DNA of 64,000 nt from Gemmatimonadales bacterium (GCA_050114915.1 JASFRN010000001.1:5020-69019), one strand, 5' to 3'; shown: positions 13,335 through 31,100, counted from the stretch's first letter. Made by a program: numbers and translations. Notes: generated by a model from the sequence alone, not told the origin.

Positions 13335-13931
13335 ATGACAGCGCGCCGTATCTTCGCCGCACTCCTCGTAGCCGCCGGGCTGGCGGGCGCTCCGTCCGCG
13401 GCGGCCCAGGTGGCCGACGTGGCCCCCGAGCCGCTGGCCGTGGGGACGAAGGCGCCGGACTTCACCCTGGTGGGTGCCGACGCCGACGGGGTGCTCTCCG
13501 ATTCGATCCGACCCACCGACTTTCGGGGACATACCCTGGTGATCGCGTTCTTTTTTCGGGCGCGATCCAGCGGGTGAACGGTGCAAATGGAAGCGTACCG
13601 TGATCAGTACGCCAGCATCTTCAACAGCGGGAAAGACGTAACGCTTCTCGCGATCAGCACCGACGATCCCGAGACGCTGCACGACTGGGCGGACGACGCC
13701 GATTTTCCGTTCGTGTTCGCCAGCGATCCCGGGGCGAAGGTCGGACAGCGCTACGGCGCGTTCCGGCAGCTCGCCGATGGGAAGTTCCAGGACAACCGGA
13801 CGGTGTTCGTAATCGATCCGGACGGCGTTATCCGCTACGTGGCGGCTCCGTTCCGGGAGATCGACCCGACGGCGTACCGGCAGCTCGAGGCCGCGATCGA
13901 CGACGTGGCGGCGCAGCGGACGCCGGAGTAG
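13335..13931 (+). CDS. secreted PrxQ/Bcp-type peroxiredoxin with in-frame TGA (13575..13577) at the peroxidatic Cys position, candidate selenoprotein
   Basis: GAAGGAGA RBS then ATG at 13335. Signal peptide MTARRIFAALLVAAGLAGAPSAAAQ. The two track ORFs (ending 13577 and starting 13581) are in the same frame, separated only by TGA. Joined, they read FFFRARSSG-U-TVQMEAYRD...LLAISTDD, which aligns with E. coli Bcp YFYPKAMTPG-C-TVQACGLRD...VLGISTDK. Confidence 0.65.
13593..13612 (+). promoter_or_regulatory. SECIS-like hairpin downstream of the in-frame UGA (GCGUAC-CGUGAUCA-GUACGC)
   Basis: A perfect 6-bp stem with an 8-nt loop begins 15 nt after the TGA. This is the expected position for a bacterial SECIS element. 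Confidence 0.35.

Positions 13932-20955: not shown

Positions 20956-20966
<11 letters not shown>
20391..20966 (+). CDS. NADPH-dependent FMN reductase family protein
   Basis: [18 protein letters not shown]...[22 protein letters not shown] are NADPH-dependent FMN reductase motifs. GTG start with an AGGAGG RBS. Confidence 0.7.
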
Positions 20967-21968
<1,002 letters not shown>

Positions 21969-21972
<4 letters not shown>

Positions 21973-22811
21973 TGGTGCTCTCCTTCGGAGGTGGTCGTGG
22001 CGGCGGCGGGCTCCGCGCGCAGGGCGCGCAGGAACGCGGCCGGATCCTCACCCGCCGCCAGGCGCTCGATCAGGGCGCTGCCGACGATGACGCCGTCGAC
22101 GTCGGGGGCGAGATCGCGCACCTGCTCCGGCGACCGGATGCCGAAGCCGGCCAGGACCGGTCGCGGCGACAGTCGGCGCAGCTCGCGGAGGTAGGCGGAG
22201 GTGGCGGCCGGCACCTCGCCGGCGCCGGCGTTCGGATCGGCCGTGGCTCCCGTAGTGCCGGCACGGGTGACGGCGTAAAGGAAGCCGCGCGTCGCCTCCG
22301 CCAGGCGCTGACGGCGTCCCGGCGGCGTGAGCGGCGTCACGAGCTGCACGAGCCCGACCCCCGTCGGGGCGAGGGCGGCCCGCAGCGGTCCCGACTCCTC
22401 GTAGGGCAGGTCCGGCACGATGAACCCCGAGACGCCGGCCGCGGCGGCGTCCGCCGCCAGCTCGCGGCAGGAGCGGCCGAGCAGCGGGTTCAGGTAGCTC
22501 ATCAGGACGATCGGCGTCTCGAGGCGCAGGCTGTTCACGAGCTCGAGGATCCAGCCGAGCGTCACCCCGCCGGCGAGGGCGACGCGGCTCGCCTCCTGGA
22601 TCGTCACGCCGTCCGCCATCGGGTCGGAGAACGGGACGCCGAGCTCGATCACGTCCGCCACTTCGGCGACGCGCCGTACGACGTCGGCGAACCCGTCGCG
22701 CGAGGGAAACCCGGCGGTGAGGAACGCGGCGAGGGCGGGGCGCCCGGAGGCTCGCGCCGCGTGGATCGCCGTCTCGATCGCCGCCGCGCCCGGTCGGTCG
22801 TGGAGCATCAC
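21969..22811 (-). CDS. trpA: tryptophan synthase alpha subunit
   Basis: [11 protein letters not shown]...[14 protein letters not shown] are TrpA motifs. Confidence 0.85.
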
Positions 22812-24034
22812 GCCTCCTCCCGGGCCGCGAGGGTCGGCATGTCCTTGTCGCCGCGTCCCGACAGGCCGACGAGGATGCGGGAGCCCGGGTGCCGGGCGGC
22901 GTGGCGGCGGGCGCCCGCGAGAGCGTGCGCGGACTCGAGGGCGGGAAGTATGCCCTCGGCCGCGCAGCAGTCGTCGAGCGCCTCCAGGGCCTCGGCGTCG
23001 GTGGCCGTCGTGTACGCGGCGCGGCCGAGGGCCGCCAGGTAGGCGTGTTCAGGGCCAACGCCCGGGTAGTCGAGCCCCGCGGACACGGAATGCGTGTCGC
23101 CGATCTGCCCGTGTTCGTCCTGCAGGAGCAGGGAGTGGCTGCCGTGGAGCACACCCGGCCGTCCGTGTGCGATCGTCGCCGCGTGGCGCCCCGGACCCGT
23201 CCCGTCTCCGCCGGCCTCGACGCCCACGAGGGCGACATCCCGGTCGGCCAGGAACGGGTGGAAGAGTCCGATCGCGTTGCTTCCGCCGCCGACGCAGGCG
23301 ATCGCCACGTCGGGCCGGCCGCCGGCCGCGCGCTCGAACTGGGTCCTGGCCTCCCGCCCGATCACGCTCTGCAGGGTGCGGACGAGCCACGGGTAAGGGT
23401 GCGGGCCCACGGCCGAGCCGAGCAGGTAATAGGTGCGGCGGGGGTCGGCCACCCAGTCGCGCAGGGCCTCGTCGATCGCGGCGCGCAGCGTGCGGTCGCC
23501 GGTGTCCACCTCCCGGACTTCGGCGCCGAGGCGGCGCATGCGGAGCACGTTCGGCGCCTGCCGGCGCACGTCGAGGCTCCCCATGTAGACCGTGCAGGGC
23601 AGGCCGGCCCGGGCGCACGCCGCCGCGGTGGCCACGCCGTGCTGGCCGGCCCCGGTCTCCGCGACGATGCGCTCCGCGCCCATCTCGCGGGCGAGCAGCG
23701 CCTGGCCGATCGCGGCGTTGATCTTGTGGGCACCCGTGTGCGCGAGATCCTCGCGCTTGAGCCATATCTCGCCCCCCCAGCGCTCTTCGAGGCCCCGGGC
23801 CCTGGTGAGCGGGGTGGGCCGTCCGACCCAGTCTCGGAGCTCTTCGTCCAGCCGGTCCCGGAAGGTGTCGTCGGCGAGCGCGGCCCGGGCGGCTTCCTCC
23901 AGCCGCGAGATCGCGCCCACCAGCGTTTCCGGCACGAACCGCCCGCCGAACGGGCCGTACCGTCCGTGCTCGTCGGGCAGTCGGCCTTCGATGAGCGCCT
24001 CGAGGGGCGGGAGCTCCGTCGCCGTCGCCGTCAT
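22808..24034 (-). CDS. trpB: tryptophan synthase beta subunit
   Basis: GRYGPFGGRFVPE...HTGAHKINA... The ATG at 24034 is preceded by GGAGGA. The rest of the 740-aa track ORF upstream is read-through junk. Confidence 0.9.
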   Translation of the reverse strand: MTATATELPPLEALIEGRLPDEHGRYGPFGGRFVPETLVGAISRLEEAARAALADDTFRDRLDEELRDWVGRPTPLTRARGLEERWGGEIWLKREDLAHTGAHKINAAIGQALLAREMGAERIVAETGAGQHGVATAAACARAGLPCTVYMGSLDVRRQAPNVLRMRRLGAEVREVDTGDRTLRAAIDEALRDWVADPRRTYYLLGSAVGPHPYPWLVRTLQSVIGREARTQFERAAGGRPDVAIACVGGGSNAIGLFHPFLADRDVALVGVEAGGDGTGPGRHAATIAHGRPGVLHGSHSLLLQDEHGQIGDTHSVSAGLDYPGVGPEHAYLAALGRAAYTTATDAEALEALDDCCAAEGILPALESAHALAGARRHAARHPGSRILVGLSGRGDKDMPTLAAREEA

Positions 24035-24663
24035 GCGTCCTCCGGGTTGAAATCTCGTGCGGCCGCCACGAAGGCGGCGATTCGTCCCGCCGACTTGATG
24101 CCGGGTGCGTCTTCGACGCCGCTGCTCACGTCGACTCCCGCGGGCCGGACGAGGCGAAGCGCGGCGCCCAGGTTGTCCGGATCGAGTCCGCCCGCGAGGA
24201 GGAGCGGCCGCCGGGCGGCCAGGCCGGCGGCCCGCGTCCAATCGGGCCGCCGGCCGCGGCCCCCGTGTCCGGCCGCTTCCAGCAGCACCGGCCGGTCCGG
24301 CGCCAGGACGGCGAGCTGCGCCTCCAGCGTTCCGTCGTCGTGCACGACCGGCAGCAGGCGGTCGGCGAACGGCGCGCGCAGCAGCGCCGGCGTCGCCTCC
24401 ACCTGAATGCGGTCGGCCGGAAACTCGTCCAGCGCCCGCGCGATCTCGTCCGGCCCGGCGAGACGGAATACCGCGACCCGCTCCACCTCGCCGTGGAGGT
24501 CCCCGGCGATTCGCCGCGCCTCGGCGGGCGCCACCCGTCGGGGAGACGGGGCGAACACGAAGCCCACGGCGTCGGCGCCGGCCTCGGCCGCGGCTCGCGC
24601 CGACGCAGCGTCGCGCACGCCGCAGATCTTCACCGTGAGGCGAGGCGTCTCCTTCGCTCTCAT
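24031..24663 (-). CDS. trpF: phosphoribosylanthranilate isomerase
   Basis: MRAKETPRLTVKICGVRDAASARAAAEAGADAVGFVF... The stop overlaps the trpB start as ATGA. Confidence 0.8.
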   Translation of the reverse strand: MRAKETPRLTVKICGVRDAASARAAAEAGADAVGFVFAPSPRRVAPAEARRIAGDLHGEVERVAVFRLAGPDEIARALDEFPADRIQVEATPALLRAPFADRLLPVVHDDGTLEAQLAVLAPDRPVLLEAAGHGGRGRRPDWTRAAGLAARRPLLLAGGLDPDNLGAALRLVRPAGVDVSSGVEDAPGIKSAGRIAAFVAAARDFNPEDA

Positions 24664-25517
24664 GCGGCCTCCCGCCGCGCGCGGCGTCCCGCGGCCACCA
24701 GCTCCGCCAGGCGGCCGGCCGGATCGGCGCACGCCGCGAGGGCCCGTCCGACGAGCGCGAAGCGGTAGCCGAGCCGTGACGCCGCGGCCACGTCGGCCGG
24801 ATCGCGCAGGCCGCTCTCGGCCACCGCGGAGATCCCCGGCGGCAGCCTGGCCGCGGCGCGCGCGAGGCGTCCCGGGTCGACGTCCAGGGTCCGCAGGTCG
24901 CGCACGTTGACGCCGAGCAGGGCCGTGACGCCCCGCGCGGCCGCGGCGGTCGCCACCGCGGCGGCCGTCTCCAGCTCCGCGTCGCCGAACGCCTCGACCA
25001 GGAGCCACAGACCGGTCTCCGCCGCCGCATCCAGGCAGCGGGCGGCGCGATCGGCGTCGAGAAGCTCGGCGATCAGCAACACGCCGCCGGCCCCCGCGGC
25101 GCGCGCCTCGAACAGCTGGTAGGGATCCACGACGAAGTCCTTGCGCATCGTCGGGATCGGCCGGTCGGAGGACGCGAGGCGGCGGCTGGCTCGCGCCAGG
25201 TCGTCGAGCCCTCCCCCGAACGCCACGGGTTCGGTGAGCACCGATACGGCCACCGCGCCGCCCCGGGCGTACGCGTCGGCCAGCCGTTCCGGGAGATCGG
25301 GGGCGTCGCCGCCGGCGGAACCGCCGCCCGGTCCGTCGCCGGGAGCGTGGCGCTTGATCTCCGCGATCACGTCGAATCCCTCCGCGGCGGGTGCGAGAGG
25401 CGGGGGCGGGGGAGCGTCGGCCGCCCGGGCCCGCAGCTCCGCCGGCGCTTCGCGACGTGCGGCCGAGCGCACCCGGCGCAGGGAGGCGATCTCCATTCCG
25501 CGGAGGAAATCAGCCAC
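24660..25517 (-). CDS. trpC: indole-3-glycerol phosphate synthase
   Basis: VIAEIKRHAP...NVRDLRTL are IGPS motifs. Its stop overlaps the trpF start. Confidence 0.8.
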   Translation of the reverse strand: MADFLRGMEIASLRRVRSAARREAPAELRARAADAPPPPPLAPAAEGFDVIAEIKRHAPGDGPGGGSAGGDAPDLPERLADAYARGGAVAVSVLTEPVAFGGGLDDLARASRRLASSDRPIPTMRKDFVVDPYQLFEARAAGAGGVLLIAELLDADRAARCLDAAAETGLWLLVEAFGDAELETAAAVATAAAARGVTALLGVNVRDLRTLDVDPGRLARAAARLPPGISAVAESGLRDPADVAAASRLGYRFALVGRALAACADPAGRLAELVAAGRRARREAA

Positions 25518-26559
25518 GGGTGCCCGTCCTCGCGGCCGACGTCGTGTCGGCCCCGAACCGGGACAGCCGGTCGAGCAGCCGGCCCGCGTCGCCCGCGTCG
25601 ATCGCGCCCCGCGCGATCTCGAGCCCCTCGGCCAGGTCCCGGGCGCGGCCCGTCACCTCGAGGGCGAGCGCCGCGCCGAGGGTCAGGGCGTCCCGGTGCG
25701 GGCCGTCCTCGCCGGACAGGGCCGCGCGCAGGGCGCGTGCGTTGAACGCCGCGTCCCCGCCAAGCAGGGCCTTCGGGACACACCTGGGCAGGCCGAGCTC
25801 CGCCGGATCGCGCCGCCGGGCGCGGACGTCGCCGGGCCGCACGTCGTAGAGGAGGAACGGGCCGCAGGGCGTCGGTTCGTCCCAACCCGGGGCGCCGTGC
25901 ACGACGAAGGCCCGCTCGATCGGCAGGCCGGCCAGACAGCGGGCGATCTGCTCGGCGACCGCCTCGGACCAGGCGCCGATTACGTGGAAGGGTGGGGCGG
26001 CCGGGTTGGTGAGCGGGCCGAGGAGGTTGAACACGGTTCGCACGCCGAGGGCCCGCCGGATGCCGGCGACGTGCTTCATCGCCGGGTGGAAGCGCGGTGC
26101 GAACAGGAAGGTGAACCCGGTCGCCTCGAGGCAGCGACCCGCGGCCTCGGGCTCGAGTGGCATGGGGAGTCCGAGCTCGGCCAGCACGTCGGCGCTTCCC
26201 GAACGGCTCGTGATCGATCCGTTGCCGTGCTTGACGACCGGCAGCCCCGTCGCCGCGGCGAGCAGGGCCGAACCGGTCGACAGGTTGAGGCTGCCGGAGC
26301 CGTCTCCTCCGGTGCCGACGACGTCCACCGCTTGCCGGGTCAGCGCCTCGGGGAGCTCCGGCCGGACGGCCAGGGCCCGCATGCCGCGGGCGAAGCCGCG
26401 CACTTCCTCGGGCGTCTCGCCCTTCAGGCGCAGGGCGACCAGCACCGCGCCGGCCACGGCCGGATCGACGTTGCCGCTCGCCAGTCCCCGCAGGACGCTC
26501 TCCGCCTCGGTTTCGGACAGGTGTCCGCCCCCGAGGATCCGCCGGATCTCGCGGGTCAT
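25510..26559 (-). CDS. trpD: anthranilate phosphoribosyltransferase
   Basis: MTREIRRILGGGHLSETEAE...DVVGTGGDGSGSLNLSTG... The ATG at 26559 lies inside the 652-aa ORF. Confidence 0.85.
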   Translation of the reverse strand: MTREIRRILGGGHLSETEAESVLRGLASGNVDPAVAGAVLVALRLKGETPEEVRGFARGMRALAVRPELPEALTRQAVDVVGTGGDGSGSLNLSTGSALLAAATGLPVVKHGNGSITSRSGSADVLAELGLPMPLEPEAAGRCLEATGFTFLFAPRFHPAMKHVAGIRRALGVRTVFNLLGPLTNPAAPPFHVIGAWSEAVAEQIARCLAGLPIERAFVVHGAPGWDEPTPCGPFLLYDVRPGDVRARRRDPAELGLPRCVPKALLGGDAAFNARALRAALSGEDGPHRDALTLGAALALEVTGRARDLAEGLEIARGAIDAGDAGRLLDRLSRFGADTTSAARTGTRG

Positions 26560-27149
26560 GCCGCCGCCCTCCGCCGCCCGCCGAGATCCAGGAAATTGCG
26601 CAGCAGGCGCTCTCCCTCGGGGGTCAGCACGCTCTCCGGGTGGAACTGCACGCTTTCGAGTCCGAACTCGCGGTGCCGCAGGCCCATGATCTCGCCGTCC
26701 GAGGTGTAGGCGCTGATCGCCAGCTCGGCGGGCAGCGAGTCCTCGACCACGGCGAGGGAGTGGTAGCGTCCGGCCGGAAACGGGTTCGGCAGCCCCTCGT
26801 ACACGCCGCGGCCGTCGTGGTAGACCCGCGAAGCCTTCCCGTGCACGAGGGAGGTGGCCGGGCCGACCCGGGCTCCGAACGCGGCCGCGAGCGCCTGGTG
26901 CCCCAGGCATACGCCCAGGACGGGTATCCGTCCGGCGGCCGCGGCGATCAGCGGCACCGACACCCCCGCGTCCTCGGGCCGGCCGGGGCCGGGGGAGACG
27001 ACGATGTGAGTGGGACGCCCGGCGAGCAGCGCGTCCACGCCGGCGGCGTCGTTGCGAACCACGGTCACGTCGGCGTCGAGGCAGGCCATCGCCTGCACGA
27101 GGTTGTACGTGAACGAGTCGTAGTTGTCGATCAACAGGACGTGTCTCAC
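26556..27149 (-). CDS. trpG: anthranilate synthase component II (glutamine amidotransferase)
   Basis: GTG start (VRHVLLIDNYDSFTYNL) preceded by GGGAGGG. Triad region GVCLGHQ...HPES. Confidence 0.8.
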   Translation of the reverse strand: MRHVLLIDNYDSFTYNLVQAMACLDADVTVVRNDAAGVDALLAGRPTHIVVSPGPGRPEDAGVSVPLIAAAAGRIPVLGVCLGHQALAAAFGARVGPATSLVHGKASRVYHDGRGVYEGLPNPFPAGRYHSLAVVEDSLPAELAISAYTSDGEIMGLRHREFGLESVQFHPESVLTPEGERLLRNFLDLGGRRRAAA

Positions 27150-28543
27150 AGGCCCTCCCGGGCGAGCTCGAGCGCGGAAGCCAGCGCCGCGCCCTTGGCG
27201 TGGATCTCTTCGTATTCGCGGTGGGGGATGCTGTCGGCGACGATTCCGGCCCCTGCCTGGTATGTGCACTCGCCGGGGCGGAACACGAGCGTGCGGATCG
27301 TGATCGCCTGGTCCATCCGCCCGCCCGCCCCGAAGTAGCCGACGGTGCCGGCGTAGAGTCCGCGGGGCGTGGGCTCGAGCTCGTCGATGATCTCCATGGC
27401 TCGGATCTTCGGGGCGCCGACGACCGTGCCGGCCGGGAAGGCGGCGGCGAACAGGTCGAACATGTCACGGTCCTCGGCCAGCACGCCCTCGGTGCCGCTC
27501 ACCATGTGCATGACGTGGCTGTAGCGTTCGATCACCCGGTAGGGCTTCACCTCGATCGAGCCCGGCACGGCCACGCGGCCCAGGTCGTTGCGCGCGAGGT
27601 CGACCAGCATCACGTGCTCGGCGTTCTCCTTCGGATCGGCGAGGAGCTCGGCCTCGAGCTCGGCGTCGCGGGCCTCCGAGCCGCCCCGCGGCCGCGTGCC
27701 GGCGATCGGGCGGAGCGACGCGGCCCGGCCTTCGAGCCGCACGAGCGCCTCCGGCGAGGACCCGACCACGCAGGTGTCGTCGAATTCGAAGAAGTACATG
27801 TAGGGCGAGGGGTTCAGCAGGCGCAGCGCCCGGTAGGCTTCGAACGGGTCCAGGTCCGTCCGTCCGGCGAACCGCACCGACAGCACGAGCTGGAACACGT
27901 CCCCCGCGGCGATGTGCGACTTGATGCGCCGGACACGCTCGTCGAAAGCGGCCTGGTCGAGCGCCGGTTGCGGAACCTGGTGAAGGGGCGAGCCCGCAGG
28001 CGGGTCCCGCCGTGACGTGACGGGGCCGCGGAGCGCTCGCACGACGTCGCGCCGCAGCGCGGCCCGCTCGTCGCCGGGCCCGTCGTGCAGCAGGGCGGCG
28101 CGGCGGGTGAGGTGGTCGAAGGCGAGGATCGAGCGGGGGGCGAACCACGCCCCGTCCGGCCCGTTCGGCGATCGTCCGGCGGGGCGGGGGAGCCGCTCGA
28201 GGCGGCGGACCAAGTCGTACCCGGCCACCCCGACCAGGCCGCCTGCGAAGGGCAGCCCGACTTCGCTCGGGGCGGGAGTCGGGGCCGCGTCGCGGGCCGC
28301 GCGGAGGGCGTCGAGCAGGGCCGACCGGTCGGGGCCCGCCGCGATCCGCTCTTCGCCGATCTGCAGGTGGCCGTCGACCAGGCGCACGTCCAGCCCGTCG
28401 CCGAACCCGATGAACGAGTAGCGGCCGAGCCGCTCGCCGCCCTCCACGCTCTCCAGCAGGAAGCGCGGTCCGAACGGGGACAGTTTCAGATAGGCGGAAA
28501 CCGGGGTGTCGAGATCCGCCACGATGTCGAAAACAGGATGCAA
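27146..28543 (-). CDS. trpE: anthranilate synthase component I
   Basis: (M)HPVFDIVADLDTPVSAYLKL... The TTG start at 28543 has GAAAGG 9 nt upstream. Chorismate-binding core. Confidence 0.85.
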   Translation of the reverse strand: MHPVFDIVADLDTPVSAYLKLSPFGPRFLLESVEGGERLGRYSFIGFGDGLDVRLVDGHLQIGEERIAAGPDRSALLDALRAARDAAPTPAPSEVGLPFAGGLVGVAGYDLVRRLERLPRPAGRSPNGPDGAWFAPRSILAFDHLTRRAALLHDGPGDERAALRRDVVRALRGPVTSRRDPPAGSPLHQVPQPALDQAAFDERVRRIKSHIAAGDVFQLVLSVRFAGRTDLDPFEAYRALRLLNPSPYMYFFEFDDTCVVGSSPEALVRLEGRAASLRPIAGTRPRGGSEARDAELEAELLADPKENAEHVMLVDLARNDLGRVAVPGSIEVKPYRVIERYSHVMHMVSGTEGVLAEDRDMFDLFAAAFPAGTVVGAPKIRAMEIIDELEPTPRGLYAGTVGYFGAGGRMDQAITIRTLVFRPGECTYQAGAGIVADSIPHREYEEIHAKGAALASALELAREGL

Positions 28544-28584
28544 CGTTCCGCGCCTTTCGTGGACATCCGGACGCGGAAGGGGGG

Positions 28585-28621
28585 AAAGAAAAAACCCCGC
28601 TTCCGGTGTCCGGAAGTGGGG
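28585..28621 (-). terminator. intrinsic terminator / trp attenuator hairpin (minus strand: CCCCACUUCCGG-ACA-CCGGAAGCGGGG followed by UUUUUUCUUU)
   Basis: A 12-bp GC-rich stem, 3-nt loop and U-tract. It lies between the leader peptide stop (28648) and the trpE RBS and start. Confidence 0.55.
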
Positions 28622-28647
28622 TCGTCTTCGCTTCTGTCAGGGCCTGG

Positions 28648-28740
28648 TCAGCCGGACGCCACCTCCGCACGCACGTGTCCGGGCCACCACCAGCTGGCGG
28701 AGGTACGAATCGCGGCGTCGAAGTTCGTCCGGTCGATCAT
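28648..28740 (-). CDS. trpL: trp operon leader peptide (30 aa, MIDRTNFDAAIRTSASWWWPGHVRAEVASG)
   Basis: Short ORF with three consecutive TGG codons. It ends 27 nt before the terminator hairpin and ~100 nt upstream of trpE. Confidence 0.55.
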   Translation of the reverse strand: MIDRTNFDAAIRTSASWWWPGHVRAEVASG

Positions 28741-28778
28741 GGGCCGATGAATACGCCGTCGGGCGGGAGTCGTCAAGT

Positions 28779-31100
28779 TCAGGGTCGCCCCGCGTCGTGC
28801 AGCAACCACGCCGGGGGCACCGGACCGTCGTGTCCGTCGGGTCCGCGCACGCCGAGCTCCAGGGTCCGGCCGCCCGCGGACTGGAAGTAGCGGAGCTGAA
28901 AGGCGTGCCGTCCCGCGGACAGCGCGATCGCCCCGGTCCGTTCGGTCGCTCCGTGATAGCCGTCGTGGTCGACCACGAGCCGGCCGTCGATGTCGAGCGT
29001 GCTGCCGTCGTCGGAACGCAGCGCGAACCGGTACACGCCGGTGACCGGGACGTCGATCCAGCCGGCGAAGGACAGTCCGAAATACTCGTCCCGGGCGAAG
29101 CCCGGAATCCCGACGTTCGCTCGGACCACGCGCCGGCTCGGCTCGGCACCGTTGAGATCGGCGACCTCGGCGGCGGACGTTTCGAAGTAAGCGAGCTCGA
29201 GGCCCGCGTCGGCGGCGGCGGGACCCGGCACGGCCGGCAACGGCTCGACGCGACGCACGACGGCGCGCCGTAGCGGACTCGCACGGCCTCCCGGAGAAAA
29301 TCGCCGGGCGCTCACCACCGTTCCGGCACGCGTCGCTTCGACCCGCAACGGACCTTCGTAGACCGGGCCGTCGGGGCCCGGATCGGACCCGTCGAGGGTA
29401 TACCGAATCGTGCCGAAGGGTAGCCCGCCCAGCCGGATCGTCACGGCGTCCTCCAGGGTCGGGACGTCCTCGTCGAGGCCCGTGGGAGGCGGCACCCGGT
29501 AGCCGATCCCCCGGTCGTCGAGCGCTTCGAGGCGTGCCGGCAGCCGGCGGAGAAACGACGTGCTGTCGCGGAGCGCCCGTGGCGTCCAGGCGACCTCGGA
29601 GAGCGCCAGCAACCGGGGGAACACCATGTATTCGACCTGGGCCTCGTCCGGCATGTACTCCGTCCACACGTTGGCCTGCGGCCCCAGGACGTGCCGTGCG
29701 GCGTCGCCGGTCAGCCCGTCGGGCACCGGCTCGAAGGCGTATACCTGCATGAGCGGCGTGAAACCGCCGATCGCGAGCGGCTCGCGGGCGGGGTCTCCCT
29801 GGTAGTGGTCGAGGTAGAGATTCGCGTTGGGAGCCACGATGACGTCGTGCCCGGCGCGGGCGGCCGCGACGGTGGCGTCGGCGCCGCGCCACGACATGAT
29901 CGCGGCGCGCGCGGGGACGCCGCCCTCGAGGATCTCGTCCCACCCGATCATCGTCCGGCCGTGTTCGTTCACGTACCGTTCGATTCTCGTCATGAACCAG
30001 CCCTGCAGCGCCTCCTCGTCGGCCAGGCCTTCGCGGCGCATCACCGACTGCGCCACCTCGCTTTCCTTCCAGCGCGTCTTCGGGACTTCGTCGCCGCCGA
30101 CGTGGACGTAAGGACCGGGGAACAGCGCCATGACTTCGTCGAGCACCGTCTCGAGGAAGCGGAACGTCGCCTCCGTCGGGCAGAAGATGTCCTCGAACAC
30201 GCCCCACGTCGTTCCCACTTCGATCGGCCCGCCGGTGCACGAGAACTCCGGGTAGGCGGCGAGCGCCGCGGTGGCGTGCCCGGGCATCTCGATCTCGGGA
30301 ATGATCGTGATGTATCGTTCCGACGCGTATCGGACGATTTCGCGGATCTCGGCCTTCGTGTAGTAGCCGCCGTACGGTTGCCCGTCGCCCACGTAGGGAT
30401 CGAGCTGCCGGCCGACGACGGTCTCCGAGCGCCGGCCGCCCACCTCCGTCAGCCGGGGGTATGCGTCGATCGGGATGCGCCAGCCCTGATCGTCCGTCAG
30501 GTGCCAGTGGAAGGCGTTCAGCTTCAGCCGCGCCATCTCGTCGATCAGCCGCTCGATCTCCTCGGGCGGCATCATGTGGCGGACCACGTCCAGGTGCATG
30601 CCCCGATAGCCGAACTGCGGGGCGTCCTCGATCGCGAGGTCGGGCAGCGGGCCGGCCGACGCGAGCTGCCGCAGGGTCTGGATCCCGTAGAACACGCCCG
30701 CGTGCGTCGACGCCGAGATCTCGACCGCGGAATCCGAAACGGTCAGCCGATAGCTCTCGTCACGGTGAGGGAAGGGACGTGCCGCGCCGGACGTGTCGGG
30801 CCGCAGCCTGAGGCGCAGCTTGCGGCCGCCGACGTCCCCCGCGAGCCCAACGAGCCGCTGCAGCTCGCCGTCGCCCGGATCGGACGGCGGAAGCGTCGAC
30901 GCGCCTCCGGTGGCCGGGCCGGTCACCGCGGCGGACGTGCCGAGCGTGAGTTCCGCGGGCCACGGCACGAGCGGCAGTCCGCGAGGGGCCCGTTCCACGC
31001 GCGTGGCCCGCCCGCCGGAACAGGCGGAGAGGGCGAGGAGGACCGCGCAGGCGATGACGGCGTCGCGCCACGGAGAATGCGTCTGCTTCGGTGTCGACAT
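28779..31100 (-). CDS. beta-N-acetylhexosaminidase (GH20) with a C-terminal PA14/GLEYA-like domain, lipoprotein
   Basis: GH20 catalytic motifs HWHLTDDQGWR and HVGGDEV. N-terminal lipobox LLALSAC. The C-terminal ~150 aa are PA14-like. Confidence 0.8.
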   Translation of the reverse strand: MSTPKQTHSPWRDAVIACAVLLALSACSGGRATRVERAPRGLPLVPWPAELTLGTSAAVTGPATGGASTLPPSDPGDGELQRLVGLAGDVGGRKLRLRLRPDTSGAARPFPHRDESYRLTVSDSAVEISASTHAGVFYGIQTLRQLASAGPLPDLAIEDAPQFGYRGMHLDVVRHMMPPEEIERLIDEMARLKLNAFHWHLTDDQGWRIPIDAYPRLTEVGGRRSETVVGRQLDPYVGDGQPYGGYYTKAEIREIVRYASERYITIIPEIEMPGHATAALAAYPEFSCTGGPIEVGTTWGVFEDIFCPTEATFRFLETVLDEVMALFPGPYVHVGGDEVPKTRWKESEVAQSVMRREGLADEEALQGWFMTRIERYVNEHGRTMIGWDEILEGGVPARAAIMSWRGADATVAAARAGHDVIVAPNANLYLDHYQGDPAREPLAIGGFTPLMQVYAFEPVPDGLTGDAARHVLGPQANVWTEYMPDEAQVEYMVFPRLLALSEVAWTPRALRDSTSFLRRLPARLEALDDRGIGYRVPPPTGLDEDVPTLEDAVTIRLGGLPFGTIRYTLDGSDPGPDGPVYEGPLRVEATRAGTVVSARRFSPGGRASPLRRAVVRRVEPLPAVPGPAAADAGLELAYFETSAAEVADLNGAEPSRRVVRANVGIPGFARDEYFGLSFAGWIDVPVTGVYRFALRSDDGSTLDIDGRLVVDHDGYHGATERTGAIALSAGRHAFQLRYFQSAGGRTLELGVRGPDGHDGPVPPAWLLHDAGRP

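What the first reader, a model, noticed from the sequence alone, without database searches (positions are those of the whole stretch)
28583..28760. Classic Trp-codon leader peptide plus terminator attenuator immediately upstream of trpE
Seen in the sequence on the minus strand. A 30-codon ORF (28740..28648) encodes MIDRTNFDAAIRTSASWWWPGHVRAEVASG, with three consecutive TGG codons. Its stop is followed, 27 nt later, by a 12-bp GC stem (CCCCACUUCCGG / CCGGAAGCGGGG) and UUUUUUCUUU. The trpE RBS and TTG start at 28543 come next. Segments such as GGUGGCGUCCGGC and CCGGACACGUG inside and just after the leader ORF are partly complementary to the 5' arm of the terminator. This fits an antiterminator alternative.

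Ribosome-mediated trp attenuation is textbook in Enterobacteria. It is much less documented in high-GC non-proteobacterial lineages. Here the attenuator sits only 38 bp downstream of a hexosaminidase gene, which implies a promoter embedded in that gene's 3' end.
Basis: partly seen in the sequence, partly recalled or inferred. Interest (0 to 1): 0.7.

Follow-up and report, generated by a model that had tools for sequence, protein, structure and literature searches.

The report
Ribosome-sensed tryptophan attenuator before trpE
This is a genuine but textbook-type tryptophan "attenuator": a tiny gene with three tryptophan codons plus a terminator hairpin that turns the tryptophan-synthesis operon off when tryptophan is plentiful. 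It is seen here in a probable Gemmatimonadota genome and belongs to a large family of such switches that no database lists.

Summary
On the minus strand, a 30-codon ORF (28740-28648) carries three consecutive TGG codons. It is followed by the strongest hairpin-plus-T-tract site in the 64-kb window and then by trpE (TTG 28543), the first gene of a trpEGDCFBA-DAHP synthase operon.

The four-segment logic of classical ribosome-mediated attenuation holds in silico (1:2 -16, 2:3 -20.9, 3:4 -23.9 kcal/mol). A ribosome stalled at WWW leaves segment 2 free to pair with the terminator's 5' arm. A ribosome at the stop codon covers segment 2.

The cassette is conserved. 143 of 154 loci encoding related TrpE proteins have a Trp-run mini-ORF, and 140 of those have a terminator. 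A covariance model built only from other members finds the window element as its sole significant hit (37.4 bits, E~9e-8).

- The promoter is not inside the hexosaminidase gene. A conserved TTGACG-17-TATTCA lies in the 38-bp spacer and ends 7 nt before the ATG, so the leader ORF is probably leaderless.
- Such attenuators are already documented in high-GC Actinobacteria and in Deinococcus.

Verdict: a new member of a known kind, in an uncatalogued cross-phylum family. Interest is modest.

The parts
28771..28776 (-). Promoter -35 hexamer TTGACG. It starts 2 nt after the hexosaminidase stop codon (28781-28779).
   Evidence: Read. TTGAC lies 35-40 nt upstream of the leader ATG in 115 of 140 family loci. 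Its function is inferred; no transcript data are available.
28748..28753 (-). Promoter -10-like hexamer TATTCA, with a 17-nt spacer from the -35 and 7 nt to the leader ATG. This geometry implies a transcription start at or next to the A of the ATG.
   Evidence: The family equivalent is mostly (G/C)ATACT, placed 6-9 nt before the ATG. No Shine-Dalgarno sequence precedes the ATG. Inferred.
28648..28740 (-). Leader ORF (trpL-like), 30 codons plus TGA: MIDRTNFDAAIRTSASWWWPGHVRAEVASG.
   Evidence: The closest relative, L081, encodes MIDQTNFDAAYRTSASWWWPGCVRAEVASG. Gemmatimonadota MAG loci L002, L006 and L011 encode peptides of the same subtype.
28684..28692 (-). Three consecutive Trp codons (codons 17-19), the sensing site.
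   Evidence: Only TGGTGGTGG in the window. A Trp run is present in 143 of 154 related loci.
28697..28704 (-). Segment 1, ACCUCCGC, just upstream of the Trp codons. It can pair with segment 2 (8 bp, -16 kcal/mol).
   Evidence: In the ribosome-free leader most segment 2 bases are paired with upstream bases. The exact 1:2 partner is not conserved across the family.
28654..28668 (-). Segment 2, GCGGAGGUGGCGUCC (leader codons 25-29), the upstream (5') strand of the antiterminator. It starts 15 nt after the last Trp codon.
   Evidence: 2:3 duplex -20.6 kcal/mol against -12.2 for shuffles, z = -3.45, 0 of 200 shuffles as good. It forms under a stalled-ribosome mask. Pairing register is conserved.
28610..28626 (-). 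Segment 3, GACGACCCCACUUCCGG. It is the 5' arm of the terminator and the downstream (3') strand of the antiterminator.
28593..28606 (-). Segment 4, CCGGAAGCGGGGUU, the 3' arm of the terminator.
   Evidence: 3:4 duplex -23.9 kcal/mol. Helix covariation across 48 family members: 89% of cells paired, 7 of 12 pairs changed on both sides, 0 of 500 shuffles as good.
28585..28594 (-). U-tract UUUUUUCUUU of the intrinsic terminator.
27146..28543 (-). trpE (anthranilate synthase component I), TTG start, the first regulated gene.
   Evidence: Pfam Chorismate_bind and Anth_synt_I_N. Homologues align from residue 1.
20956..27269 (-). Rest of the operon, read from the ORF translations: trpG, trpD, trpC, trpF, trpB, trpA, then a DAHP synthase gene. 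All lie on the same strand and are tightly packed.
   Evidence: ORF list and translations. Pfam was run only on the trpG ORF (GATase) and the DAHP synthase ORF (DAHP_synth_1 + FXD). Co-transcription is inferred.

Best explanation
This is a classical ribosome-mediated transcription attenuator of a trpEGDCFBA-DAHP synthase operon.

Transcription starts from a promoter in the 38-bp spacer, probably at or within 1-2 nt of the A of the leader AUG. The 30-codon leader ORF is then translated as a leaderless message while RNA polymerase moves on.

- Charged tRNA-Trp plentiful: the ribosome passes the three UGG codons and runs through segment 2, which lies inside the ORF, to the stop codon. There it covers segment 2. 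Segment 3 pairs with segment 4, the hairpin plus U-tract forms, and transcription stops about 155 nt from the start.
- Charged tRNA-Trp scarce: the ribosome stalls at codons 17-19. It covers segment 1 and leaves segment 2, which starts 15 nt downstream, free. Segment 2 pairs with segment 3 as soon as segment 3 is made, the terminator cannot form, and polymerase reads into trpE.
- No translation, for example on read-through transcripts from the hexosaminidase gene: segment 2 is held by upstream leader sequence and the terminator forms.

Shown here: the sequence elements, their energies and geometry, and their conservation. Inferred: the transcription start, leaderless translation and the Trp response in vivo.
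For: Anatomy
- All elements are present in the right order and on the right strand.
- This is the only TGGTGGTGG and the strongest terminator-like site in 64 kb.

Folding
- With nothing masked, the leader forms a long 1:2 structure plus the terminator.
- With nucleotides 1-61 or 1-67 masked (ribosome at WWW), and the transcript ending before segment 4, the 2:3 antiterminator forms at -23 to -26.5 kcal/mol.
- With nucleotides 1-103 masked (ribosome at the stop), only the terminator forms.
- Isolated helices: 1:2 -16.0, 2:3 -20.9, 3:4 -23.9 kcal/mol.

Conservation
- 143 of 154 TrpE-relative loci carry a Trp-run mini-ORF, and 140 of those have a hairpin plus T-tract.
- Segment 2 starts 9-15 nt after the last Trp codon in the loci listed.
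- Family 2:3 duplex: median -15.8 against -9.85 kcal/mol for shuffles, with 70% of loci at p<=0.05.
- Segments 2 and 3 from the same locus fit better than pairs taken from different loci (0 of 10,000 permutations).
- The central base of segment 3 switches C to U together with its partners in segments 2 and 4.
- Terminator helix covariation: 0 of 500 shuffles as good.
- In 94% of loci segment 2 is mostly paired with upstream bases when no ribosome is present.

Family membership
- Model R1, built without the window or its subtype, hits 28585-28698 on the minus strand at 37.4 bits, E~9e-8. The next hits have E of 0.34 and above.

Promoter
- The -35, spacer, -10 and 6-9 nt to the ATG are conserved family-wide.
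Against: - There are no transcript, TSS or reporter data. The Trp response and the leaderless start are inferences.
- At thermodynamic equilibrium the terminator always wins, even with the stall mask (P=0.99). The model therefore needs the usual kinetic argument that 2:3 forms before segment 4 is made.
- Column-wise covariation for the 2:3 helix is not significant within either subfamily (213 of 500 and 83 of 500 shuffles as good). The columns are nearly invariant, so support rests on conserved complementarity in register and on between-subfamily differences, which may reflect few evolutionary events.
- The 1:2 pairing is not conserved in a fixed register (67% of cells paired).
Confidence: 0.9

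Rival explanations
1. The hairpin is simply the terminator of the upstream hexosaminidase gene, and the WWW ORF is a chance open frame in GC-rich DNA. The trp operon would then have no leader control.
For: The hairpin lies about 160 nt downstream of the hexosaminidase stop, and no other terminator follows that gene. The leader's frame is open for 530 codons upstream, as is common in 70% GC DNA.
Against: The mini-ORF, Trp run, segment 2 motif and terminator are conserved upstream of trpE in about 140 loci. Only L081 shows any similarity to the hexosaminidase. A conserved promoter sits between the hexosaminidase stop and the ATG. This is the only TGGTGGTGG in the window. The hairpin may additionally stop read-through from the hexosaminidase gene, which is compatible with the main model.
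Confidence: 0.02
2. Termination is controlled by something other than a translating ribosome: a TRAP-like RNA-binding protein, a T-box read by uncharged tRNA-Trp, or a ligand-binding riboswitch.
For: These are the other known ways to regulate trp genes through a terminator/antiterminator switch (established knowledge; TRAP in PMC3064811).
Against: No T-box or riboswitch family matched, even at E<=10. Only one (G/U)AG triplet occurs in the leader, whereas 11 form the TRAP site (PMC3064811). The conserved in-frame Trp run, with a fixed distance to segment 2, is what a ribosome sensor needs and these mechanisms do not.
Confidence: 0.02
3. The main control is translational or Rho-dependent. In this reading, leader translation chiefly governs access to the trpE ribosome-binding site through the hairpin at 28578-28546, and the intrinsic terminator is secondary.
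For: A -15.2 kcal/mol hairpin abuts the trpE start and covers the SD-like AAAGG. The sequence just before it, CCCCCCUUCCG, nearly copies the terminator 5' arm and can pair with segment 4. L081 and L092 fold an analogous hairpin in front of the trpE start. By eye, L139 has matching complementary segments in its sequence. trpE has a weak TTG start.
Against: Predicted accessibility of the trpE ribosome-binding site did not change consistently between the terminator and antiterminator states (window 0.38 against 0.44; L081 0.33 against 0.26; L092 0.42 against 0.28). The canonical hairpin plus U-tract is the most conserved part of the family.
Confidence: 0.05
4. In addition to acting in cis, the released ~155-nt attenuator RNA or the 30-residue peptide acts in trans, as shown for rnTrpL and peTrpL of Sinorhizobium meliloti.
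For: There is precedent (PMC6614838, PMC7298713). The best sub-threshold Rfam match of the window element is RcsR1, which is rnTrpL. The peptide tail VRAEV(A/G)S is conserved within the subtype.
Against: The conserved tail coincides with segment 2, and its nucleotides are conserved at third codon positions too, as seen in the alignments. An RNA-level constraint explains this. Other family members end the ORF before segment 2. No trans target was sought or found. No protein family matches the peptide.
Confidence: 0.08

Closest known systems
Escherichia coli trp operon attenuator (trpL; Rfam Trp_leader RF00513)
   Same: A short leader ORF with tandem Trp codons, four segments forming alternative 1:2/3:4 or 2:3 helices, and an intrinsic terminator before trpE. 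The distance from the Trp codons to the terminator is similar, about 100 nt. Many members of the wider family end in WWWR(T/P)S-stop, like E. coli TrpL, which ends in GWWRTS (the E. coli sequence is recalled from memory).
   Different: There is no sequence or structure match to any Rfam family, Trp_leader included, even at E<=10. The window has three Trp codons, not two. Its ORF has 30 codons and runs through segment 2. No Shine-Dalgarno sequence precedes it, and the promoter abuts the ATG, so it is probably leaderless. No TrpR-type operator was looked for.
Sinorhizobium meliloti trpL-trpE(G) attenuator / rnTrpL (Rfam RcsR1 RF02552)
   Same: A leaderless attenuator RNA transcribed from an RpoD-like promoter, with three consecutive Trp codons (established knowledge) and three stem-loops that include an antiterminator and a terminator (PMC6614838). 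It is the best sub-threshold Rfam match of the window element. That match spans the whole model and aligns the UGGUGGUGG and the terminator.
   Different: The score is 18.7 bits against a gathering threshold of 60 (E 0.94), so the window element is not a member. The S. meliloti peptide has 14 residues. The regulated gene there is a fused trpE(G) alone, whereas here it is a whole trpEGDCFBA operon. A trans function is shown there and is untested here.
Predicted or tested trp attenuators of Corynebacterium and Streptomyces (Seliverstov et al. 2005, PMC1262725)
   Same: High-GC genomes, leader peptides with double or triple UGG, GC-rich terminators with poly-U, and antiterminators that share complementary motifs with the terminator.
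   Different: A different phylum. No sequence comparison with those elements was made here.
Deinococcus deserti trpEGD leader peptide (de Groot et al. 2014, PMC4007540)
   Same: The leader peptide is translated from an essentially leaderless transcript (TSS at -1), upstream of trpE, in a non-proteobacterial lineage.
   Different: In D. deserti the TSS is mapped by RNA-seq. Here it is only inferred from promoter geometry. The sequences were not compared.

Membership tests
Classical ribosome-mediated amino-acid attenuator (trp type) | A short ORF with two or more tandem Trp codons directly upstream of a Trp biosynthesis gene, on the same strand. | tested here: met
   30-codon ORF with WWW at codons 17-19, 104 nt before trpE.
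Classical ribosome-mediated amino-acid attenuator (trp type) | An intrinsic terminator (GC-rich hairpin plus U-tract) between the leader ORF and the structural gene. | tested here: met
   -22.9 kcal/mol hairpin plus UUUUUUCUUU. Strongest of 3 such sites in 64 kb. The helix covaries across 48 relatives.
Classical ribosome-mediated amino-acid attenuator (trp type) | An antiterminator helix mutually exclusive with the terminator (segment 2 pairs with the terminator's 5' arm). | tested here: met
   9+3 bp, -20.6 to -20.9 kcal/mol, z = -3.45 against shuffles. About 90% of cells pair in register in both subfamilies, against 38-61% when slid. Compensatory covariation within subfamilies is not significant. 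Between-locus co-adaptation is significant.
Classical ribosome-mediated amino-acid attenuator (trp type) | Geometry: a ribosome stalled at the regulatory codons leaves segment 2 free, and a ribosome at the stop codon masks it. | tested here: met
   Segment 2 starts 15 nt after the last UGG, and the stop codon lies 3 nt after its end. Masked folds behave as the model requires. The spacing is 9-15 nt in the family loci listed.
Classical ribosome-mediated amino-acid attenuator (trp type) | Segment 2 is sequestered by upstream leader sequence (1:2) when the leader is not translated. | tested here: met
   In the window most segment 2 bases (11 of 15) are paired upstream with P about 0.8-1.0. In 94% of family loci at least half of segment 2 is paired upstream. 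The partner is not fixed.
Classical ribosome-mediated amino-acid attenuator (trp type) | Termination responds to charged tRNA-Trp in vivo. | not testable with these tools
   Needs transcript mapping or reporter assays.
Rfam Trp_leader (RF00513) | Score at or above the family gathering threshold. | tested here: not met
   No hit at E<=10 in 27500-29500, none at gathering in the whole window, and none at E<=1 in 8 related loci.
Rfam RcsR1 / rnTrpL (RF02552) | Score at or above the gathering threshold (60 bits). | tested here: not met
   18.7 bits, E 0.94, full-length alignment over 28590-28703 on the minus strand.
Uncatalogued trpE-leader family defined here (model R1) | Significant match to a covariance model built from 32 other members, with the window and its subtype excluded. 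| tested here: met
   37.4 bits, E~9e-8, model positions 1-123 of 123, the sole significant hit in the window. The model also hits 68 of 71 genome loci and 78 of 79 metagenome loci that have upstream DNA, and 0 of 7 Nitrospirota or Anaerolineae loci.
TRAP-regulated trp leader (Bacillus type) | About 11 (G/U)AG repeats in the leader. | tested here: not met
   One such triplet in 197 nt.
T-box leader | Match to the Rfam T-box model or a specifier-loop architecture. | tested here: not met
   No match at E<=10.
Leader peptide protein families (Pfam / NCBIfam) | Profile match of the 30-residue peptide. | tested here: not met
   No family at E<=10 for the window peptide or 4 relatives.

The most novel reading that the evidence does not exclude
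The window element belongs to one coherent, still uncatalogued RNA family: a leaderless trpL-attenuator cassette made of a promoter, a WWW mini-ORF, a GGAG(G)UGG antiterminator strand and a nearly invariant CCCA(C/U)(C/U)UCCG terminator arm. It travels with one TrpE clade across at least three phyla (Gemmatimonadota, gammaproteobacterial Steroidobacteraceae, Acidimicrobiia) and many metagenome contigs. That distribution suggests horizontal spread of the regulated gene together with its switch. A bolder extension is that its released RNA or peptide has trans functions like rnTrpL and peTrpL.
Probability: 0.6. Interest if true: 0.4.

Novelty: new member of a known kind. Interest (0 to 1): 0.3.

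Why it matters
The mechanism has been textbook knowledge for decades, so the finding changes no concept. Its value is practical.

- It annotates a regulatory element, and a 30-codon gene, that gene callers and Rfam, Pfam and NCBIfam all miss.
- It extends ribosome-mediated trp attenuation to a probable Gemmatimonadota genome, a phylum for which the literature searches run here returned no paper on transcription attenuation or trp leader peptides.
- It reveals a family found in nearly all of the roughly 150 related loci examined. The family has a conserved leaderless layout and could be submitted as a new RNA family.
- That family could be used to study horizontal transfer of a biosynthetic gene together with its switch.

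Tried and rejected
1. Equilibrium folding with a ribosome footprint masked. The terminator stayed at P=0.99 in every state, so equilibrium does not discriminate between the states. I replaced it with co-transcriptional truncations.

2. A six-segment cascade. The idea was that segment 4 pairs with the C-rich stretch after the U-tract and frees the trpE ribosome-binding site in the antiterminated state. Predicted accessibility of the site did not shift consistently in 10 loci, so I rejected it as unsupported.

3. Column-wise covariation of the 2:3 helix.
   - MAFFT mis-registered segment 2 across subfamilies.
   - Within subfamilies the columns are too invariant for significance.
   - I used alignment-free tests instead.

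4. A fixed 1:2 hairpin drawn from L032. Only 67% of cells paired, so the 1:2 partner varies.

5. Exact-sequence look-ups of TrpE and the hexosaminidase, meant to identify the source genome. Neither is on record. The Gemmatimonadota assignment therefore rests on the leader subtype and a TrpE neighbour-joining tree.

6. Database searches.
   - Rfam on the region, the whole window and 8 relatives: nothing at threshold.
   - Pfam and NCBIfam on the peptides: nothing.

7. Literature searches for Gemmatimonadetes or Gemmatimonas together with attenuation: no papers.

Full report
**Observation**

On the minus strand, an ATG at 28740 opens a 30-codon frame encoding MIDRTNFDAAIRTSASWWWPGHVRAEVASG. The frame ends at the TGA at 28650-28648, and codons 17-19 are TGG TGG TGG (28692-28684).

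After 26 further nucleotides comes a hairpin: CCCCACUUCCGG (28621-28610), loop ACA, CCGGAAGCGGGG (28606-28595), then UUUUUUCUUU (28594-28585). The stem has 11 Watson-Crick pairs and one internal A.C mismatch. With two flanking pairs it folds at -22.9 kcal/mol.

trpE starts at the TTG at 28543. Homologues align from residue 1, and the closest relative also uses TTG.

The elements are unlikely to be chance:
- TGGTGGTGG occurs once in the window on both strands, against 0.22 expected.
- Only three hairpin-plus-T-tract sites exist in the 64 kb, and this one is by far the strongest.

**Context**

The element sits in front of a full operon on the same strand. By reading the ORF translations the order is trpE, trpG, trpD, trpC, trpF, trpB, trpA and a DAHP synthase gene. 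Pfam was run on trpE, trpG and the DAHP synthase ORF and confirms them.

Upstream is a GH20 hexosaminidase with a PA14 domain, ending at 28779.

The 38-bp spacer holds TTGACG (28776-28771), 17 nt, TATTCA (28753-28748), 7 nt, then the ATG. No Shine-Dalgarno sequence is present.

**Mechanism in silico**

Ribosome-free, the leader folds into a long structure that sequesters segment 2 (GCGGAGGUGGCGUCC, 28668-28654), and the terminator forms as well.

I masked the RNA a stalled ribosome would cover and truncated the transcript before segment 4. Segment 2 then pairs with segment 3 (GACGACCCCACUUCCGG, 28626-28610) at -23 to -26.5 kcal/mol. With a ribosome at the stop codon, only the terminator forms.

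The isolated helices are:
- 1:2 at -16.0 kcal/mol (ACCUCCGC, 28704-28697),
- 2:3 at -20.9 kcal/mol,
- 3:4 at -23.9 kcal/mol.

Segment 2 starts 15 nt after the last UGG, just outside a stalled ribosome.

At full equilibrium the terminator wins in every state. As in E. coli, the switch must therefore be kinetic.

**Relatives**

TrpE-based scans of one genome per species and of metagenome contigs gave 160 loci.

- Of 154 with usable upstream DNA, 143 have a Trp-run mini-ORF, and 140 of those have a hairpin plus T-tract.
- The closest relative is L081, at 82% TrpE identity over 353 residues. It encodes MIDQTNFDAAYRTSASWWWPGCVRAEVASG and also has the hexosaminidase upstream.
- Three Gemmatimonadota MAGs (L002, L006, L011) and the metagenome contig L139 share the leader subtype, with different upstream ORFs and no hexosaminidase similarity.
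- In a TrpE neighbour-joining tree the window groups with these loci. The window is therefore probably from Gemmatimonadota, by inference.
- Most other members come from Steroidobacteraceae, Acidimicrobiia and unassigned metagenome contigs. Their leader peptides typically end in WWWR(T/P)S.
- Nitrospirota and Anaerolineae loci, at 45-52% TrpE identity, lack the element.

**Tests of the alternative helices**

- Terminator. Across 48 non-redundant members, 89% of cells pair. Seven of 12 pairs change on both sides, no shuffle of 500 does as well, and slid controls give 35-56%.
- Antiterminator against shuffles. The window duplex is -20.6 against -12.2 kcal/mol (z = -3.45). The family median is -15.8 against -9.85 kcal/mol, and 70% of loci are individually at p<=0.05.
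- Same-locus fit. Segment 2 fits the segment 3 of its own locus better than that of other loci (0 of 10,000 permutations).
- Coupled base change. The central base of segment 3 changes C to U together with the facing base in segments 2 and 4.
- Limit. Within each subfamily the 2:3 helix is about 90% paired in register, against 38-61% when slid. The columns are nearly invariant, so column covariation is not significant.

**Family membership**

A covariance model was built from 32 members of the other subtype only. It finds 28585-28698 on the minus strand at 37.4 bits, E~9e-8, over the full model length. The next window hits have E of 0.34 and above.

At E<=1e-4 the model hits 68 of 71 genome loci and 78 of 79 metagenome loci that have upstream DNA. 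The remaining four score more weakly.

**Promoter**

Aligned at the leader ATG, the family shows cTTGACG, a 17-18-nt spacer, (G/C)ATACT and 6-9 nt to the ATG. TTGAC lies at -40 to -35 in 115 of 140 loci.

The promoter therefore belongs to the cassette and lies in the spacer, not inside the hexosaminidase gene. The leader ORF is most likely translated from a leaderless mRNA.

**Comparison with known systems**

No Rfam family reaches threshold for the window or for 8 relatives. The best sub-threshold hit is RcsR1 at 18.7 bits, against a threshold of 60. RcsR1 is the S. meliloti trp attenuator RNA rnTrpL, which is itself leaderless (PMC6614838).

Classical trp attenuators are described in Corynebacterium and Streptomyces (PMC1262725). 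A leaderless trpEGD leader peptide is described in Deinococcus deserti (PMC4007540).

No Pfam or NCBIfam model matches the peptide. Two searches combining Gemmatimonadetes or Gemmatimonas with attenuation terms returned no papers.

**Verdict**

It is an ordinary mechanism in a lineage where I found no prior report of it, and it belongs to a large uncatalogued family. Confidence in ribosome-mediated attenuation is about 0.9. Confidence in the leaderless start is about 0.7.

Noticed in passing
window 28546-28578 (minus strand): A -15.2 kcal/mol hairpin (UUCCGCGUCC...GGCGCGGAA) abuts the trpE TTG and covers the SD-like AAAGG. The stretch just before it, CCCCCCUUCCG, nearly copies the terminator's 5' arm. 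L081 and L092 fold an analogous hairpin before trpE, and L139 appears to have one by eye. A possible translational layer was tested and not supported.
   Followed up: partly
whole window, both strands: Canonical hairpin-plus-T-tract terminators are very rare here. Only 3 sites were found (28621-28595 minus, 14710-14670 minus, 13515-13548 plus), and the trp-leader one is much the strongest.
   Followed up: partly
window 20956-21972 (minus strand): A DAHP synthase gene (DAHP_synth_1 plus an N-terminal ferredoxin-like FXD domain) directly follows trpA on the same strand. The first step of the common aromatic pathway may therefore be co-transcribed with the Trp-attenuated operon.
   Followed up: no
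loci L001-L160 compared with the window: One TrpE clade (57-67% identity to the window over the full protein for the genome loci) is shared by Gemmatimonadota, gammaproteobacterial Steroidobacteraceae and Acidimicrobiia MAGs. Each carries the same promoter-leader-terminator cassette, which suggests horizontal spread of trpE with its switch.
   Followed up: partly
loci such as L017, L034, L032 and L150, upstream of trpE: Many family members encode 14-18-residue peptides ending in WWWR(T/P)S-stop, with the stop codon directly before the GGAGUGGG antiterminator strand. The ending resembles E. coli TrpL...GWWRTS (recalled from memory). In the window subtype the ORF instead runs through that strand.
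   Followed up: partly
window 28590-28703 (minus strand): The top sub-threshold Rfam hit is RcsR1 (18.7 bits, E 0.94). That sRNA family is the S. meliloti trp attenuator RNA rnTrpL, so the weak hit is thematically apt but far below the 60-bit threshold.
   Followed up: yes
window 28648-30240 (minus strand): The leader's reading frame stays open for 530 codons upstream, overlapping the hexosaminidase gene in another frame. Mechanical ORF lists therefore hide the 30-codon gene inside a long spurious ORF.
   Followed up: no
L081 1-1266 and window 28779-31100: The GH20 hexosaminidase-to-trp-leader junction is conserved in the closest relative (70% protein identity), with the -35 box again 2 nt after the stop codon. 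No other locus shows hexosaminidase similarity.
   Followed up: yes
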